Assembly: GCA_000004985.1 (NCBI GenBank)
Contig: GG739185.1
Reading direction: 5' to 3' (one strand)
DNA length: 4,461 bases
Source: Naegleria gruberi
Taxonomy: Eukaryota
The notes beneath the pieces are model-generated. The model saw only the letters and a program-made list of their open reading frames with translations, did not search any database and had not been told where the DNA came from. Made by a program: the position numbers and the translations under genes. Shown here piece by piece: positions 1 through 4,461 of this stretch (its first letter is position 1; every line of letters begins with the position of its first letter).

Positions 1-1032
1 TTCATGAAAAAGTGTCTAGTTAATGGTGAATTGCCACCAATTATTATGGTATCTAGTGACAATGACCACAAGTTTGCACCATCAAACCGTAAAGGGCAAG
101 TTCGGATGGCGTTTTTGTGGGAAATATTTAATCTTGATGTTTTGATACATAGTTCCTATGCACCAAACTGTAGTAAGTATAATCGTGTAGAGAGAGAAAT
201 GGCACAACTGTCTAAAGTTTTAATAGGACATGTTGATTTAGACAGAAAACCCTTTGGAGAAGATAAAAAAGCAAAGCAAAAGAATGCTAATGCTGTGCTT
301 GAGAAGTTGAAGGAAATTTTTTTAAGAGCAGGCCCAAAGTATTTTGTAAATTCTGCAAGTGTCTACCAAACAGAACGTACACCTTTGCTTGAACATTGGC
401 CTACATTTGAGGAGATTGATTTATTTTTAGAAGGAAAGAATCAAGATGATGAAAAAATCAAAAGTTTGTTAAAAAAAATTCACACTCACTCCGAGCAAGG
501 AAATGGATTGAATCTTTTTGTTCTGAGAAAATGTGATGATCCAACATGTTGTTCACCAAAAAGAGCATCCAAATATTGGGAAATTACTAGTAGCTTTGGT
601 GGTTTTATTCCAAGTCCACTCATAGATCCTACTCGCTCCAACGAAAAGAATGAACATTTTTATTCCTATGAAGACAGAAACAAAATTTCAGGAGTTCAAA
701 TGGATGTCGACTTTCCTAGTTTGAAAGGAAATGCTGCTACTTGTGGCAAATGTAATAGAAGAATTCATTCTGAAATAGATAGGAAAATTCATGAAAATAT
801 TTGCCATCCAACAAGAACGGATTTGTTATTGGATGCTGATATTTCTTTGGAAGACAAAATATCATCTCCTGTTCCAACAGGAACAAAAGGGAGATCTTTA
901 GCAAAGCATTATTCTAACCTCGTAGAACAAGCAAAACAGAATGCACTAATTGAGGTTGAACGTGAACAACAATTAATCCAAAATTTAAACAACCCACAAC
1001 CACTGATTAGAAGAAAGAACAAAAAGAAATAG
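1..1032 (+). CDS. Hypothetical protein, 5'-partial; single C-terminal C2H2-type zinc finger plus a Cys cluster (CDDPTCC) and a basic NLS-like tail (RRKNKKK); stop TAG at 1030-1032
   Basis: The supplied ORF is 4..1032, but codon 1-3 (ttc) is in frame and not a stop, so the ORF is open at the window edge. It is 343 stop-free codons in AT-rich DNA and its composition looks protein-like. Zinc-finger pattern C-x2-C-x12-H-x4-H (CGKCNRRIHSEIDRKIHENICH) sits at nt 742-807. It is followed by an A/T-only spacer containing an AATAAA hexamer. I recognise no family-level homology by eye. Confidence 0.55.
   Translation, partial: FMKKCLVNGELPPIIMVSSDNDHKFAPSNRKGQVRMAFLWEIFNLDVLIHSSYAPNCSKYNRVEREMAQLSKVLIGHVDLDRKPFGEDKKAKQKNANAVLEKLKEIFLRAGPKYFVNSASVYQTERTPLLEHWPTFEEIDLFLEGKNQDDEKIKSLLKKIHTHSEQGNGLNLFVLRKCDDPTCCSPKRASKYWEITSSFGGFIPSPLIDPTRSNEKNEHFYSYEDRNKISGVQMDVDFPSLKGNAATCGKCNRRIHSEIDRKIHENICHPTRTDLLLDADISLEDKISSPVPTGTKGRSLAKHYSNLVEQAKQNALIEVEREQQLIQNLNNPQPLIRRKNKKK
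742..807 (+). other. C2H2-type zinc-finger motif (C-x2-C-x12-H-x4-H) inside the first ORF
   Basis: Direct reading of codons tgt ggc aaa tgt ... cat gaa aat att tgc cat. The spacing fits the classical C2H2 consensus C-x2-4-C-x12-H-x3-5-H. There is a single finger only. Confidence 0.5.
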
Positions 1033-1145
1033 AAAATATTTATTAATTATTTTATTACAACTAAATTAAATAATTTAATATAATTTAAATTAAATAAAGT
1101 TAAAATTAAATTAAAATAAATATTAATTTTATTTTTTTTTTAATT
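1033..1145. repeat. A/T-only low-complexity spacer with reiterated AAATTAAAT-like units and a T9 run
   Basis: There are only a handful of G/C bases across ~110 bp. The units ctAAATTAAATaa, ttAAATTAAATaaa and aaATTAAATTAAAAtaa recur. This pattern is typical of intergenic DNA in extremely AT-rich eukaryotic genomes. Confidence 0.6.
1092..1097 (+). terminator. AATAAA polyadenylation-signal-like hexamer ~60 nt 3' of the first ORF's stop
   Basis: Sequence match only. Such hexamers are frequent by chance in A/T-only DNA. A second AATAAA overlaps the second ORF's stop at 1840-1845. Confidence 0.2.
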
Positions 1146-1178
1146 CAGTGCCGAAACCCCCCACCCCTATGCGTGCTG
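1146..1178. other. Isolated GC/C-rich cluster GTGCCGAAACCCCCCACCCCTATGCGTGCTG at the boundary of the A/T-only spacer; function unknown
   Basis: There is an abrupt switch from ~0% GC to a ~65% GC island containing C6-A-C4 (G4TG6 on the minus strand). It is followed at 1185-1201 by the CCGTCTC..CCAAGG motif that recurs at 2063-2074. Confidence 0.5.
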
Positions 1179-2590: not shown

Positions 2591-4461
2591 ATGACAGATT
2601 CCAATCAAGATTATCACAGTCCTCCTTATGGAGAAGATGATTCAATTGATGAGGATGAGGAAGACTTGATCATTGAACAATTTCTAGCCTCTGAAGAAAT
2701 TCTCTCTGAAGCAGACATTTACATGGAGAATGATAAGGAAGTTGAATTTCTTCTAGAGCAATGTCAATACATTCAACCATCTCTCAACAAGCCTTTGGAA
2801 AATGAGGAGTTTGGAAACATGTCAAGTCAATTGGATCCATCCAACCTTGGTGCATCTTTTGGTACTGCTGCTGCTGCTACTGATAGTGCTAATGCCAACA
2901 AGGCTTATAGTAGACGAATCATCAATAGTAGTGATTATTATGAAGCTTATCAACAACTTCAAGCTAATAGCAAGGCTATGGAAGTATGGAATCCTCCACT
3001 TGAATTGCCTCCTCCTATTGACGAAAACCATACTGCTCTTATTCTCAACTCAAAGGATGATTCTAGAAAGGAAGTTTTATTCGAGGCTTTGTTTAATCAC
3101 ATTCCCTCCAATGAAATCATGCATCAATTCGTCAAGTATATAGGTGCAGAACAAGTCTTGCAAGATTTATTCTCTGTAATTGCTATCAATTCTCTCAATG
3201 ATCCTTCTCTCTTACCAAAACTGGTCGAGCAAATCAATTCCTTAGAGAAGAAGAGAAATACACAAGACAGTCTAATTTCTCAAGATTTAGAGAAACTTAT
3301 TCTTGGATACAATAGAAGAGGTGGAACATCAATTATTAGAGGTCGTAGAAGAGAAGAATATCAGCAAATGATGGATGAAGCAGCACCCTCACTCGAAGGA
3401 CTAGTTGGCGAAGAATTAATGAAAAGGAGAAATGAAATCTTTCAAAAAATTAAAAATGAAGTGTCAATCAGTGAGAGAACAAGGAGAACCTTTATGACTG
3501 GTGTTAAGAATTACTTGGCATACTGTATAGACAATAATGTACAGCCTTTTATTGCAACTGAAAATCCCAAATACAAAGGTATTGTCAATGAGATAGCCTT
3601 CAACTCATGGGCTCTATTTCTTACAGAACCAATTAATGGAAAGATTTACAAATTCAATACAGTTCTAGGCTATGCCAGAGGACTTCGAAGATGGTGCGAT
3701 AGAAATGGATATCAAAATTGTCTTCTCCCTAAAACCACAGAGTCTCTAGACCTCGCAAAAGCAGTTTCTAACATTGTTAATACTGAGGAAATAAGGGCTG
3801 CCATTATCATACCATATGAAATTTTTAGAATGGTACTATCTCTGCCACCAACAGAAACTGGTTTAAGACTCAGAGCAAGACTTCTCATTCAATACTTGAC
3901 AGGGTCTCGACCTTTTTCTATTGATTGCGTCAAAATCAAGAACCTTACCATTAGACATGTCATTAACCCAACCAAGAATACAATAGAATCATTCTCACTC
4001 GATATTTTCTATGAACATGACAAGACAACTGAAGAGTGTTATAGAACTCAAAGACTCTACTCTTTCCCTGTTCTTAGATATTGTCCAATACTCATGCTTT
4101 TAGAATATTTGGCTTTGAGAGGAATTTTCAAAAGTGGTAACTTGGAGTCATGTTTGAAAAATTGTGACTTTTCTATTAAGGAAGAATGTTTGGAAATGCA
4201 TTTATTCTCCTCTATTGGAAATGGTTTTGTACCTCACAATTTGAGTCAATTTGCTAAAGAAATTACCAATTCTAGATTATTTGTTGGAATTCAGCAACAT
4301 ATTGTTCCTTATAGTATGAGAAGATCTGGAGCTACATGGGCTGCTGTGCAAATCATGATCCAACACCAAAGTTTAAAGGTTGACGAGTTTGAATTAATCA
4401 TTCGTTGGTATGGATGGAAGTTAACACCAGGTAACAATGTCTATCGTCGTTATGTTGACAA
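2591..4461 (+). CDS. Tyrosine recombinase / integrase (Cre-phage-integrase superfamily), 3'-partial (>=623 aa), with a long acidic low-complexity N-terminal extension
   Basis: Hand translation from ATG 2591 in frame 2 to the window end gives 623 codons with no stop. The ORF is absent from the supplied track only because it has no in-window stop. The start context is aaaaaaaacaacATGa (A at -3). Ordered motifs: SxxTxxxYxxxL core-binding-like helices at aa 294-380; box I LLIQYLTGSRPFSIDCVKIKNL (R440; compare Cre TLLRIAEIARIRVKDI); PTKNT (K462); box II PYSMRRSGATWAA (R577; compare Cre GHSARVGAARDMA); RWYGW (W609); NNVYRRYVD (Y618, W-to-Y spacing 9 as in Cre GGWTNVNIVMNY). The alternate-frame ORFs 2802-3143 (+) and 2822-3031 (-) overlap it and are rejected. 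Confidence 0.85.
   Translation, partial: MTDSNQDYHSPPYGEDDSIDEDEEDLIIEQFLASEEILSEADIYMENDKEVEFLLEQCQYIQPSLNKPLENEEFGNMSSQLDPSNLGASFGTAAAATDSANANKAYSRRIINSSDYYEAYQQLQANSKAMEVWNPPLELPPPIDENHTALILNSKDDSRKEVLFEALFNHIPSNEIMHQFVKYIGAEQVLQDLFSVIAINSLNDPSLLPKLVEQINSLEKKRNTQDSLISQDLEKLILGYNRRGGTSIIRGRRREEYQQMMDEAAPSLEGLVGEELMKRRNEIFQKIKNEVSISERTRRTFMTGVKNYLAYCIDNNVQPFIATENPKYKGIVNEIAFNSWALFLTEPINGKIYKFNTVLGYARGLRRWCDRNGYQNCLLPKTTESLDLAKAVSNIVNTEEIRAAIIIPYEIFRMVLSLPPTETGLRLRARLLIQYLTGSRPFSIDCVKIKNLTIRHVINPTKNTIESFSLDIFYEHDKTTEECYRTQRLYSFPVLRYCPILMLLEYLALRGIFKSGNLESCLKNCDFSIKEECLEMHLFSSIGNGFVPHNLSQFAKEITNSRLFVGIQQHIVPYSMRRSGATWAAVQIMIQHQSLKVDEFELIIRWYGWKLTPGNNVYRRYVD
2865..2878 (+). repeat. (CTG/GCT)4 trinucleotide repeat inside the recombinase N-terminal region (encodes AAAA)
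   Basis: Direct reading: actgctgctgctgctact. It lies in the Ala/Ser/Asn-rich low-complexity stretch GASFGTAAAATDSANAN. Confidence 0.7.
3470..3730 (+). other. Putative N-terminal core-binding (SAM-like helical) domain of the recombinase (aa ~294-380)
   Basis: SERTRRTFMTGVKNYLAYCIDNN ... TVLGYARGLRRWCDRNGY resembles the S-x-x-T-x-x-x-Y...L..F / RaLsaLrsFfkyl helices of phage-integrase N domains. The alignment is by eye only. Confidence 0.35.
3890..4461 (+). other. Tyrosine-recombinase catalytic domain (aa ~434-623): R440, K462, [H571/Y574], R577, W609, Y618
   Basis: See motif list above. Codon positions: R440 cga 3908-3910, K462 aag 3974-3976, R577 aga 4319-4321, W609 tgg 4415-4417, Y618 tat 4442-4444. 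The domain is truncated by the window edge 5 codons after the presumed nucleophile. Confidence 0.75.

What the first reader, a model, noticed from the sequence alone, without database searches (positions are those of the whole stretch)
4298..4461. Non-canonical box II: Tyr (Y574) at the usual His position, with an upstream His (H571) as possible substitute and a Cre/Flp-type Trp (W609) instead of His-III
Aligning by eye, ours reads QQHIVPYSMRRSGATW against Cre's GHSARVGAARDM. This puts Y574 where the conserved general-base His (Cre H289, Flp H305) normally sits. The nearest His is three residues further upstream. The third position is Trp, as in Cre and Flp, rather than His, as in lambda Int and XerCD. 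This combination hints at a distinct eukaryotic YR lineage. Alternatively, the enzyme may have altered chemistry, or may be binding-competent but cleavage-impaired.
Basis: inference. Interest (0 to 1): 0.5.

Follow-up and report, generated by a model that had tools for sequence, protein, structure and literature searches.

The report
Naegleria tyrosine recombinase with Tyr-for-His active site
The end of this Naegleria gruberi contig encodes a real but very divergent tyrosine recombinase that has a tyrosine where most relatives have a catalytic histidine; this variant is already known, occurs in about 7% of such enzymes, and works in other recombinases, so the motif is unusual-looking but ordinary.

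Summary
The ORF 2591..4461 (+), open at the contig end, is NCBI 'predicted protein, partial [Naegleria gruberi]'. It reads H570-I-V-P-Y574-S-M-R577-R578-S-G-A-T-W ... G-W609-K ... Y618-R-R-Y621. The His is 570, not 571, and lies four residues upstream of the Tyr.

Against 78 XerD sequences, P-Y574-S-M-R577-R aligns with P-H-x-L-R-H at posterior 0.7-0.9. A box II profile scan picks this register uniquely (z 5.2). H570 aligns with a non-catalytic Lys and is Lys in N. lovaniensis. W609 aligns with Cre W315 and is invariant in the family.

The 'altered chemistry or impaired' reading is not supported. Tyr is the commonest alternative at His-II (6.8%). It is required in the active fungal Starship recombinase HhpA (Y381), is present in ResT and TelA, and is among the Cre H289 replacements that still recombine in vivo.

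Verdict: a new, poorly annotated member of a known kind. The Ser at the Glu/Asp-I position and a 9-residue longer helical hairpin are rarer features than the Tyr.

The parts
2591..4461 (+). ORF of 623 codons, open at the 3' contig end. It is identical to NCBI 'predicted protein, partial [Naegleria gruberi]'. The N-terminal ~280 aa are acidic and low-complexity; the rest is a two-domain tyrosine recombinase.
   Evidence: (100% identity, contig length 4461)
3440..3790 (+). Core-binding (N-terminal DNA-binding) type helical domain, about aa 284-400. It aligns with Cre residues about 28-130.
3812..4461 (+). Catalytic domain, about aa 408-623, cut by the contig end two codons after Y621.
3908..3910 (+). 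R440, Arg-I (box I, TGSRP).
   Evidence: Pairs with Cre R173 and with XerD Arg-I (E. coli R148; residue 147 in the reference row), posterior 0.9. Invariant in the family.
3917..3919 (+). S443 at the Glu/Asp-I position. It is Ser or Thr in every family member.
   Evidence: Pairs with Cre E176, posterior 0.9. More than 95% of recombinases have an acidic residue here, and Cre E176T is highly active (PMC2943603).
4022..4024 (+). K478, candidate catalytic Lys after the second predicted beta strand (EHDK).
   Evidence: Pairs with Cre K201, posterior about 0.5. Lys in all members but P0006, which has Asn. Predicted strands.
4298..4300 (+). Not catalytic by alignment.
   Evidence: Pairs with a non-catalytic Lys of XerD. 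It is Lys in N. lovaniensis and His in the metagenome relative.
4310..4312 (+). Y574 at the His-II position of box II.
   Evidence: hhalign against XerD, posterior 0.8-0.9. Profile scan z 5.2, unique best window. Invariant in the three Naegleria-type lineages.
4319..4324 (+). R577 (Arg-II by alignment) and R578.
   Evidence: R577 pairs with XerD Arg-II, posterior 0.7-0.8. Both are invariant in the Naegleria-type clade.
4415..4417 (+). W609 at the His/Trp-III position (YGWK).
   Evidence: Pairs with Cre W315, posterior about 0.7. Invariant in all five lineages.
4442..4453 (+). Y618-R-R-Y621, the two candidate nucleophile tyrosines.
   Evidence: Y618 pairs with Cre Y324 (W+9 as in Cre), posterior about 0.5 in global mode and 0.1-0.3 in local mode, and with the Tyr of the distant subfamily. 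Y621 is the Tyr invariant in the Naegleria clade; N. lovaniensis has Ala at the Y618 position.

Best explanation
The window ends inside the gene for a divergent eukaryotic tyrosine recombinase of Cre-like two-domain architecture. It is most likely the recombinase of a low-copy Crypton-like mobile element of Naegleria.

The active site is a complete but minority-state version of the canonical seven residues: R440 (Arg-I), S443 (in place of Glu/Asp-I), K478 (Lys), Y574 (in place of His-II), R577 (Arg-II), W609 (Trp at His/Trp-III, as in Cre and Flp), and a nucleophile Tyr at 618 or 621.

Inferred mechanism, from the established chemistry of the family. The two arginines and W609 hold the scissile phosphate. 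K478 protonates the leaving 5' oxygen. The nucleophile Tyr forms a 3'-phosphotyrosyl link. The hydroxyl of Y574 takes the hydrogen-bonding and proton-shuttling role that the His-II imidazole has in most relatives, as proposed for ResT Y293 and shown to be required for HhpA Y381.

Shown here: the homology, the fold, the residue correspondences and their conservation. Inferred: activity, and the role of each residue.
For: Homology and fold:
- hhalign gives 96.6% (E 5.7e-10) against the Cre family and 92.6% (E 4.5e-7) against the XerD family.
- UniRef names the N. lovaniensis homologues 'Tyr recombinase domain-containing protein'.

Residue map:
- R440 and S443, posterior 0.8-0.9; K478, about 0.5.
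- Y574 0.8-0.9, R577 0.7-0.8, W609 about 0.7; Y618 about 0.5 in global mode only.
- The box II scan is unique at z 5.2, with a positive control on Cre.

Conservation: PYSxRRSGATW, YGW and R-x-Y are invariant across N. gruberi, N. lovaniensis and a metagenome relative that are only 36-45% identical overall.

Selection: the two N. lovaniensis copies differ with dN/dS 0.24.

Compatibility of Tyr with catalysis:
- 6.8% of recombinases have Tyr at His-II, and Cre tolerates all H289 changes but D, E, K, R and W (PMC2943603).
- HhpA Y381 is required (PMC10104507).
- ResT Y293 and TelA Y363 occupy the same place (PMC11317167).
- Cre E176T and E176N are highly active, so Ser/Thr at 443 is also compatible.
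Against: - No structural view of the pocket. The model is below pLDDT 50 from residue 577 to the end, apart from residues 594-597.
- The Cre-family alignment does not place box II (posterior 0-0.2). It pulls R578-S-G onto Cre W-S-G.
- Arg-II to Trp-III is 32 residues, against 22-23 in Cre, XerD, lambda Int and Flp. An insertion of about 9 residues has to be assumed. The XerD alignment downstream of Arg-II takes a different path, onto the non-conserved H592.
- The distant subfamily (P0005, P0012, P0013) reads TRSCR[ST]G and has neither His nor Tyr at either possible register.
- N. lovaniensis has Ala where Cre's nucleophile aligns.
- The only other relative with DNA in hand is decayed, with two frameshifts and one stop.
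- No copy number, termini or target sites are known, and nothing shows activity.
- The gene is truncated by the contig end.
Confidence: 0.72

Rival explanations
1. The protein is a catalytically dead or domesticated derivative of a recombinase. It would be a DNA-binding protein, as Ndc10, Gcr1 and the DUF3504 proteins are derived from Cryptons. On this reading, the non-canonical residues at three of seven active-site positions reflect relaxed catalytic constraint.
For: - In N. lovaniensis the gene sits between housekeeping genes as one full copy and one 5'-truncated tandem copy. It is under purifying selection (dN/dS 0.24), yet has Ala at the position aligned with Cre Y324.
- Very few relatives exist anywhere.
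- Relatives carry a conserved C-terminal extension of about 650 aa with no known domain.
Against: - Domesticated Crypton derivatives typically lose the catalytic Tyr, Arg-II and mostly the His (PMC3212892).
- Here both arginines, the Lys, the Trp and a Tyr at 621 are invariant in the Naegleria-type clade across 36-45% overall identity.
- Each deviating residue is one known to support catalysis elsewhere.
- The window copy has Tyr at both 618 and 621.
Confidence: 0.2
2. The register is shifted by one. R578 would be Arg-II, so S575 rather than Y574 would sit at the His-II position, with Y574 merely adjacent.
For: - The distant subfamily shares R-[ST]-G with R578-S-G, and has Cys where R577 would align in that register.
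- The Cre-profile scan scores the two registers almost equally (2.4 against 2.3).
Against: - The XerD profile scan gives 19.6 for the Y574 register. The shifted register is not among the top six.
- hhalign gives posterior 0.8-0.9 for Y574/His.
- P-[HY]-x-[LM]-R-[HR]-x-x-A-T matches residue for residue only in the Y574 register.
- MAFFT with eight sequences pairs Y574-S-M with R-S-C of the subfamily.
Confidence: 0.06
3. H570 reaches into the active site from one helical turn upstream and supplies the missing imidazole.
For: H570 is present in N. gruberi and in the metagenome relative (YHVMPY).
Against: - It is Lys in both N. lovaniensis copies.
- It aligns with a non-catalytic Lys in XerD.
- The window with H570 at His-II scores 4.5 against 19.6.
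- It lies in the segment preceding the predicted helix.
Confidence: 0.02

Closest known systems
Starship 'Captain' tyrosine recombinases (Pfam DUF3435), e.g. HhpA of Hephaestus, Paecilomyces variotii
   Same: - Eukaryotic transposon recombinase with a Cre-like predicted fold.
- Tyr instead of His at the His-II position. HhpA Y381 is required, and Y381H is non-functional. The His/Tyr split is an ancient division within the family (PMC10104507).
- DUF3435 is the only recombinase-related Pfam model that gives the window protein even a weak score.
   Different: - The DUF3435 score is far below threshold: 12.3 bits against a cut-off of 25.8, E 0.078, covering box I to Lys only.
- No cargo-carrying giant element is evident.
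- Different host kingdom: Heterolobosea, not fungi.
- Y574 to the candidate nucleophile is 44-47 residues, against 35 in HhpA.
Cre recombinase of phage P1 (and the Cre-like family)
   Same: - Trp at the His/Trp-III position.
- Trp-to-Tyr spacing of 9 if Y618 is the nucleophile.
   Different: - Cre has His289 and Glu176 where this protein has Tyr and Ser.
- About 13% sequence identity.
- The helix K-L hairpin is 9 residues shorter in Cre.
- Cre has no 280-aa acidic N-terminal region or long C-terminal extension.
Crypton DNA transposons (recombinase-only eukaryotic elements) and their domesticated derivatives (Ndc10, DUF3504 proteins)
   Same: - A single long ORF encodes the recombinase plus extra C-terminal sequence.
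- No reverse transcriptase nearby.
- Tandem copies in N. lovaniensis.
- Structural matches to Ndc10 and QRICH1.
   Different: - Described Cryptons carry the R-H-R-Y tetrad (PMC3212892).
- There is no sequence-level match to DUF3504 or DUF3435 above threshold.
- No Crypton is reported from Naegleria in the searched literature.
- Element boundaries were not determined.
Telomere resolvases ResT (Borrelia) and TelA (Agrobacterium)
   Same: A second Tyr in the active site, three residues before Arg-II (ResT Y293/R296, TelA Y363), proposed as a general acid/base (PMC11317167).
   Different: - The resolvases have His at position III and make hairpin telomeres. The shared Tyr is convergent, not a sign of relatedness.
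Euplotes Tec1/Tec2 elements (DDE transposase plus tyrosine recombinase)
   Same: A DDE-transposase-like ORF (window 1-1032) lies 1.56 kb upstream of the recombinase gene on the same strand.
   Different: - The transposase assignment is weak (E 0.069).
- The pairing is absent next to the recombinase gene in all three related loci.
- No Tec sequence was available to compare.

Membership tests
Tyrosine recombinase superfamily (DNA breaking-rejoining enzymes) | Two-domain fold: helical core-binding domain plus catalytic domain with a three-stranded sheet | tested here: met
   [not shown]
Tyrosine recombinase superfamily | Arg-I and Arg-II | tested here: met
   R440 pairs with Cre R173, posterior 0.9. 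R577 pairs with XerD Arg-II, posterior 0.7-0.8. Arg-I is invariant in the family; R577 is invariant in the Naegleria-type clade but cannot be placed in the distant subfamily.
Tyrosine recombinase superfamily | Catalytic Lys on the beta2-beta3 hairpin | tested here: met
   K478 pairs with Cre K201, posterior about 0.5. Lys in all members but P0006, which has Asn. It follows the predicted strands.
Tyrosine recombinase superfamily | His-II (87.3% His, 6.8% Tyr in the family) | tested here: not met
   Y574 occupies the position. This is the family's commonest alternative residue (PMC2943603), so it does not exclude membership.
Tyrosine recombinase superfamily | His/Trp-III | tested here: met
   W609 pairs with Cre W315, posterior about 0.7, and is invariant. 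An ungapped motif scan for this box was uninformative.
Tyrosine recombinase superfamily | Glu/Asp-I (more than 95% acidic) | tested here: not met
   S443 pairs with Cre E176 at posterior 0.9 and with the XerD equivalent at 0.8. It is Ser or Thr in all family members.
Tyrosine recombinase superfamily | Nucleophile Tyr about 9 residues after His/Trp-III | tested here: inconclusive
   Y618 (W+9) pairs with Cre Y324, posterior about 0.5 in global mode and 0.1-0.3 in local mode, but is Ala in N. lovaniensis. Y621 is invariant in the Naegleria clade but is Trp in the distant subfamily.
Tyrosine recombinase superfamily | Formation of a covalent 3'-phosphotyrosyl-DNA intermediate | not testable with these tools
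   Needs biochemistry.
Pfam PF00589 Phage_integrase | HMM score above the gathering threshold | tested here: not met
   No hit at E <= 10 for the window protein, four relatives or isolated segments.
Pfam PF11917 DUF3435 (Starship Captain / Crypton-type recombinases) | HMM score above the gathering threshold (25.8 bits) | tested here: not met
   12.3 bits, E 0.078, aa 430-538 against profile positions 31-143 of 418.
Crypton DNA transposons | Mobile unit with a recombinase as its only enzyme; multiple copies; defined ends or target site | tested here: inconclusive
   N. lovaniensis has one full and one truncated tandem copy, about 4.76 kb apart and 96% identical, between host genes. The contig is too short to see ends. 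The N. gruberi genome was not available for copy counts.
Telomere resolvases (ResT/TelA/TelK) | Resolvase-type catalytic domain with its characteristic additional domains | tested here: not met
   [not shown]

The most novel reading that the evidence does not exclude
The Naegleria proteins and their few metagenomic relatives may form a previously undescribed superfamily of eukaryotic tyrosine-recombinase elements, or a Naegleria-specific domesticated gene. Its marks would be a fixed triple-minority active site (Ser at Glu/Asp-I, Tyr at His-II, Trp at His-III), a K-L hairpin lengthened by 9 residues, and a conserved C-terminal region of about 650 aa of unknown function. In N. gruberi it may be paired with a DDE transposase, as in ciliate Tec elements.
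Probability: 0.3. Interest if true: 0.45.

Novelty: new member of a known kind. Interest (0 to 1): 0.25.

Why it matters
For annotation: this gene and its N. lovaniensis homologues are missed by Pfam and NCBIfam. They can now be labelled as Cre-fold tyrosine recombinases with a mapped active site.

For the biology of mobile elements: the result adds a heterolobosean example to the short list of eukaryotic recombinase lineages. It is also a further, independent case of Tyr replacing His-II, alongside the fungal Starship Captains and the bacterial ResT and TelA.

It does not open a new mechanistic question. Tyr at this position is already documented, surveyed (6.8%) and tested by mutagenesis.

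Tried and rejected
- Direct family and structure-database sequence searches gave no recombinase hit: Pfam, NCBIfam, and PDB phmmer/hmmsearch with the single protein, the family profile and isolated box segments.
- Single-sequence AlphaFold failed (pLDDT 38). The 8-sequence model is good for aa 410-570 apart from a dip near aa 470-490, but below pLDDT 50 for nearly all of box II to the C-terminus, so it cannot show which side chain fills the pocket. The tools do not return coordinates.
- hhalign against the Cre family places box II unreliably (posterior 0-0.2) in local, global and greedy modes. I rejected that local alignment because it leaves both invariant arginines unpaired.
- The XerD alignment downstream of Arg-II runs onto H592 as 'His-III'. 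I rejected this because H592 is Lys in the two closest relatives and no Tyr follows it.
- Ungapped motif scans for box III were uninformative. The box II scan of the distant subfamily found no register.
- Attempts to enlarge the family found nothing further: two metagenome scans (protein patterns, and a degenerate DNA pattern for box II plus G-W) and one viral-contig scan. The word-index search added only P0012 and P0013.
- The AlphaFold-database fold library was not available.
- The Tec2 recombinase paper (PMC141166) is not held, so no Tec comparison was made.
- A relationship to telomere resolvases was considered because of the shared Tyr. I rejected it on fold scores.
- The upstream ORF has no plasmid match.
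Full report
**What is in the window.** The window is a whole 4461-bp contig. The + strand ORF from 2591 runs 623 codons to the contig end without a stop. It is 100% identical to an NCBI 'predicted protein, partial [Naegleria gruberi]' on a contig of length 4461. Codon counting gives H570 (4298-4300), Y574 (4310-4312), R577/R578 (4319-4324), W609 (4415-4417), Y618 (4442-4444) and Y621 (4451-4453). The His is 570, not 571, and lies four residues before the Tyr.

**Is it a tyrosine recombinase at all?** Sequence-to-model searches say nothing. There is no Phage_integrase or any other recombinase hit in Pfam, NCBIfam or PDB sequences, whether for the protein, its relatives, the family profile or isolated segments. 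The only hint is a sub-threshold DUF3435 match (12.3 bits, E 0.078) over box I to the Lys.

An exhaustive phmmer scan of 1.84 billion representatives found only six proteins at E <= 1e-3, one of them the query itself:
- Two tandem N. lovaniensis genes (1305 and 1007 aa). UniRef names them 'Tyr recombinase domain-containing protein'.
- A decayed copy on a metagenome contig, with two frameshifts and one stop.
- A distant subfamily, P0005, to which P0012 and P0013 were added by the later profile search.
- An N-terminal fragment (P0006).

**Which residue sits at His-II?** Three independent lines agree on Y574.
- In the XerD profile alignment, P573-Y574-S-M-R577-R578 pairs with P-H-V-L-R-H. Posterior digits are 8-9 for Y574/His-II and 7-8 for R577/Arg-II. 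H570 pairs with a non-catalytic Lys. The result is the same with the 3-sequence and the 8-sequence family alignments.
- An ungapped scan of the 12-column XerD box II profile across all 332 windows of the protein gives VPYSMRRSGATW as a unique maximum (19.6, z 5.2; next best 6.5). The window with H570 at His-II scores 4.5. As a positive control, the same scan recovers H289 in the Cre family (10.8, z 4.6). The scan also works on the window protein alone and on N. lovaniensis alone.
- PYSxRRSGATW is invariant among three lineages that share only 36-45% identity, whereas position 570 is His, Lys, His.

The equivalence of XerD H244 and Cre H289 is established (PMC2943603, Table 1).

The Cre-family hhalign itself cannot place this box (posterior 0-0.2). 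It slides R578-S-G onto Cre's W-S-G and leaves both invariant arginines unpaired. The reason is an insertion: Arg-II to Trp-III is 32 residues here, against 22-23 in Cre, XerD, lambda Int and Flp. The helix K-L hairpin is thus about 9 residues longer. The same insertion sends the XerD alignment downstream of Arg-II onto the non-conserved H592, which I reject. The AlphaFold model predicts a helix starting at P573, consistent with the usual position of His-II and Arg-II at a helix N-terminus. Confidence there is below 50, so this carries little weight.

**The rest of the active site.**
- R440 pairs with Arg-I (posterior 0.9).
- S443 pairs with Cre E176 (0.9). It is Ser or Thr in every family member.
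- K478 pairs with Cre K201 (about 0.5) and is Lys in every member but the fragment P0006.
- W609 pairs with Cre W315 (about 0.7) and is invariant in all five lineages.
- The nucleophile is ambiguous. Y618 is at W+9 as in Cre, pairs with Y324 (about 0.5 in global mode, lower in local mode), and matches the Tyr of the distant subfamily. However, both N. lovaniensis copies have Ala there and keep Tyr at 621, which is the Tyr invariant in the Naegleria clade.

**What the Tyr means.** The literature removes most of the surprise.
[quoted passage not shown] His/Trp-III is 92% His and 4% Trp. Glu/Asp-I is 79% Glu and 16.4% Asp (PMC2943603).
[quoted passage not shown] E176T and E176N are highly active.
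- In the experimentally mobile fungal Starship Hephaestus, the Captain recombinase HhpA has Tyr381 at this position. Y381A and Y381H both fail to restore transposition. The His/Tyr split divides the Captain phylogeny at a deep node (PMC10104507).
- ResT Y293 and TelA Y363 are a second active-site Tyr at the same place, proposed to act as a general acid/base (PMC11317167).

A Tyr here is therefore the standard alternative and compatible with catalysis. It is already known in eukaryotic recombinase transposons. Of the three deviations, the Ser at Glu/Asp-I (under 5% of the family non-acidic) is the rarest.

**What kind of element.**
- In N. lovaniensis, a full-length gene and a 5'-truncated copy lie in tandem, about 4.76 kb apart and 96% identical, between housekeeping genes. 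dN/dS between them is 0.24.
- The relatives continue for about 650 aa beyond the recombinase domain, with conserved motifs and no known domain. The window lacks this part only because the contig ends.
- There is no reverse transcriptase nearby.
- This picture fits a low-copy Crypton-like element best, and a domesticated gene second. The data cannot separate the two.
- In the window, a DDE-transposase-like ORF (1-1032; weak PF07592 hit) lies upstream on the same strand. It has no counterpart beside the recombinase gene in the three related loci.

**Verdict.** The structural reading (Tyr at His-II, Trp at III, a distinct small eukaryotic lineage) is supported. The functional speculation (altered chemistry, impaired cleavage, upstream His as a substitute) is not. 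This is a new, unannotated member of a known kind with a known minority active-site configuration. Interest is low to moderate.

Noticed in passing
window 1-1032 (+): An ORF open at the 5' contig end has a weak match to the ISAzo13-type DDE transposase domain (PF07592, E 0.069, aa 15-76 against HMM 183-244 of 308). It carries an 'SKYNRVERE' motif and a Cys/His cluster, CGKCNRRIHSEIDRKIHENICH. It lies 1.56 kb upstream of the recombinase gene on the same strand, which recalls the DDE-plus-recombinase pairing of Euplotes Tec elements. No counterpart lies beside the recombinase gene in L001, L002 or L003, and there is no match in plasmids.
   Followed up: partly
window 3917-3919 (S443): Ser, or Thr in relatives, sits at the Glu/Asp-I position, where more than 95% of tyrosine recombinases have an acidic residue. 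This deviation is rarer than the Tyr the finding is about. Cre E176T is reported to be highly active.
   Followed up: partly
window 4319-4417 (R577 to W609): Arg-II to Trp-III is 32 residues, against 22-23 in Cre, XerD, lambda Int and Flp. This implies a helix K-L hairpin about 9 residues longer. The insertion is what derails profile alignments in this region.
   Followed up: partly
window 4442-4453; L003 6156-9179 and 10001-13918: Both N. lovaniensis copies have Ala at the position of Y618, which is the residue aligned with Cre's nucleophile, but they keep Tyr at 621. Either Y621 is the nucleophile in this clade or the N. lovaniensis genes are catalytically dead. The two copies are a full gene and a 5'-truncated tandem copy between housekeeping genes, with dN/dS 0.24.
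   Followed up: partly
L001 8975-11233: The metagenome relative of the recombinase gene has two frameshifts and one in-frame stop, and was called as two separate genes (P0003 and P0004). It is a decayed copy, as expected for a mobile element.
   Followed up: yes
L003 11200-13918; L001 10150-11233 (beyond the window's end): Relatives carry about 650 further residues after the recombinase domain. They share motifs such as SELPLP.N..GQ and EYGLAL[DE]WL, and match no Pfam family. The window protein presumably continues likewise beyond the contig end.
   Followed up: no
window 1033-1150 and 1845-2060: These intergenic stretches are extremely AT-rich (GC about 0.26-0.28), with short AAATTAAAT-type repeats and imperfect inverted repeats (e.g. 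1037-1069 / 1865-1897, 73%). They flank a 223-codon GTG-start ORF (1173-1844) that has no database match. None looks better than chance.
   Followed up: no
L002 1542-3143 (P0012) and relatives P0005, P0013: A distant subfamily keeps Arg-I, the Lys, G-W and a Tyr at W+9, but reads TRSCR[ST]G in box II. It has neither His nor Tyr at either possible His-II register, and its box II could not be aligned with confidence.
   Followed up: partly
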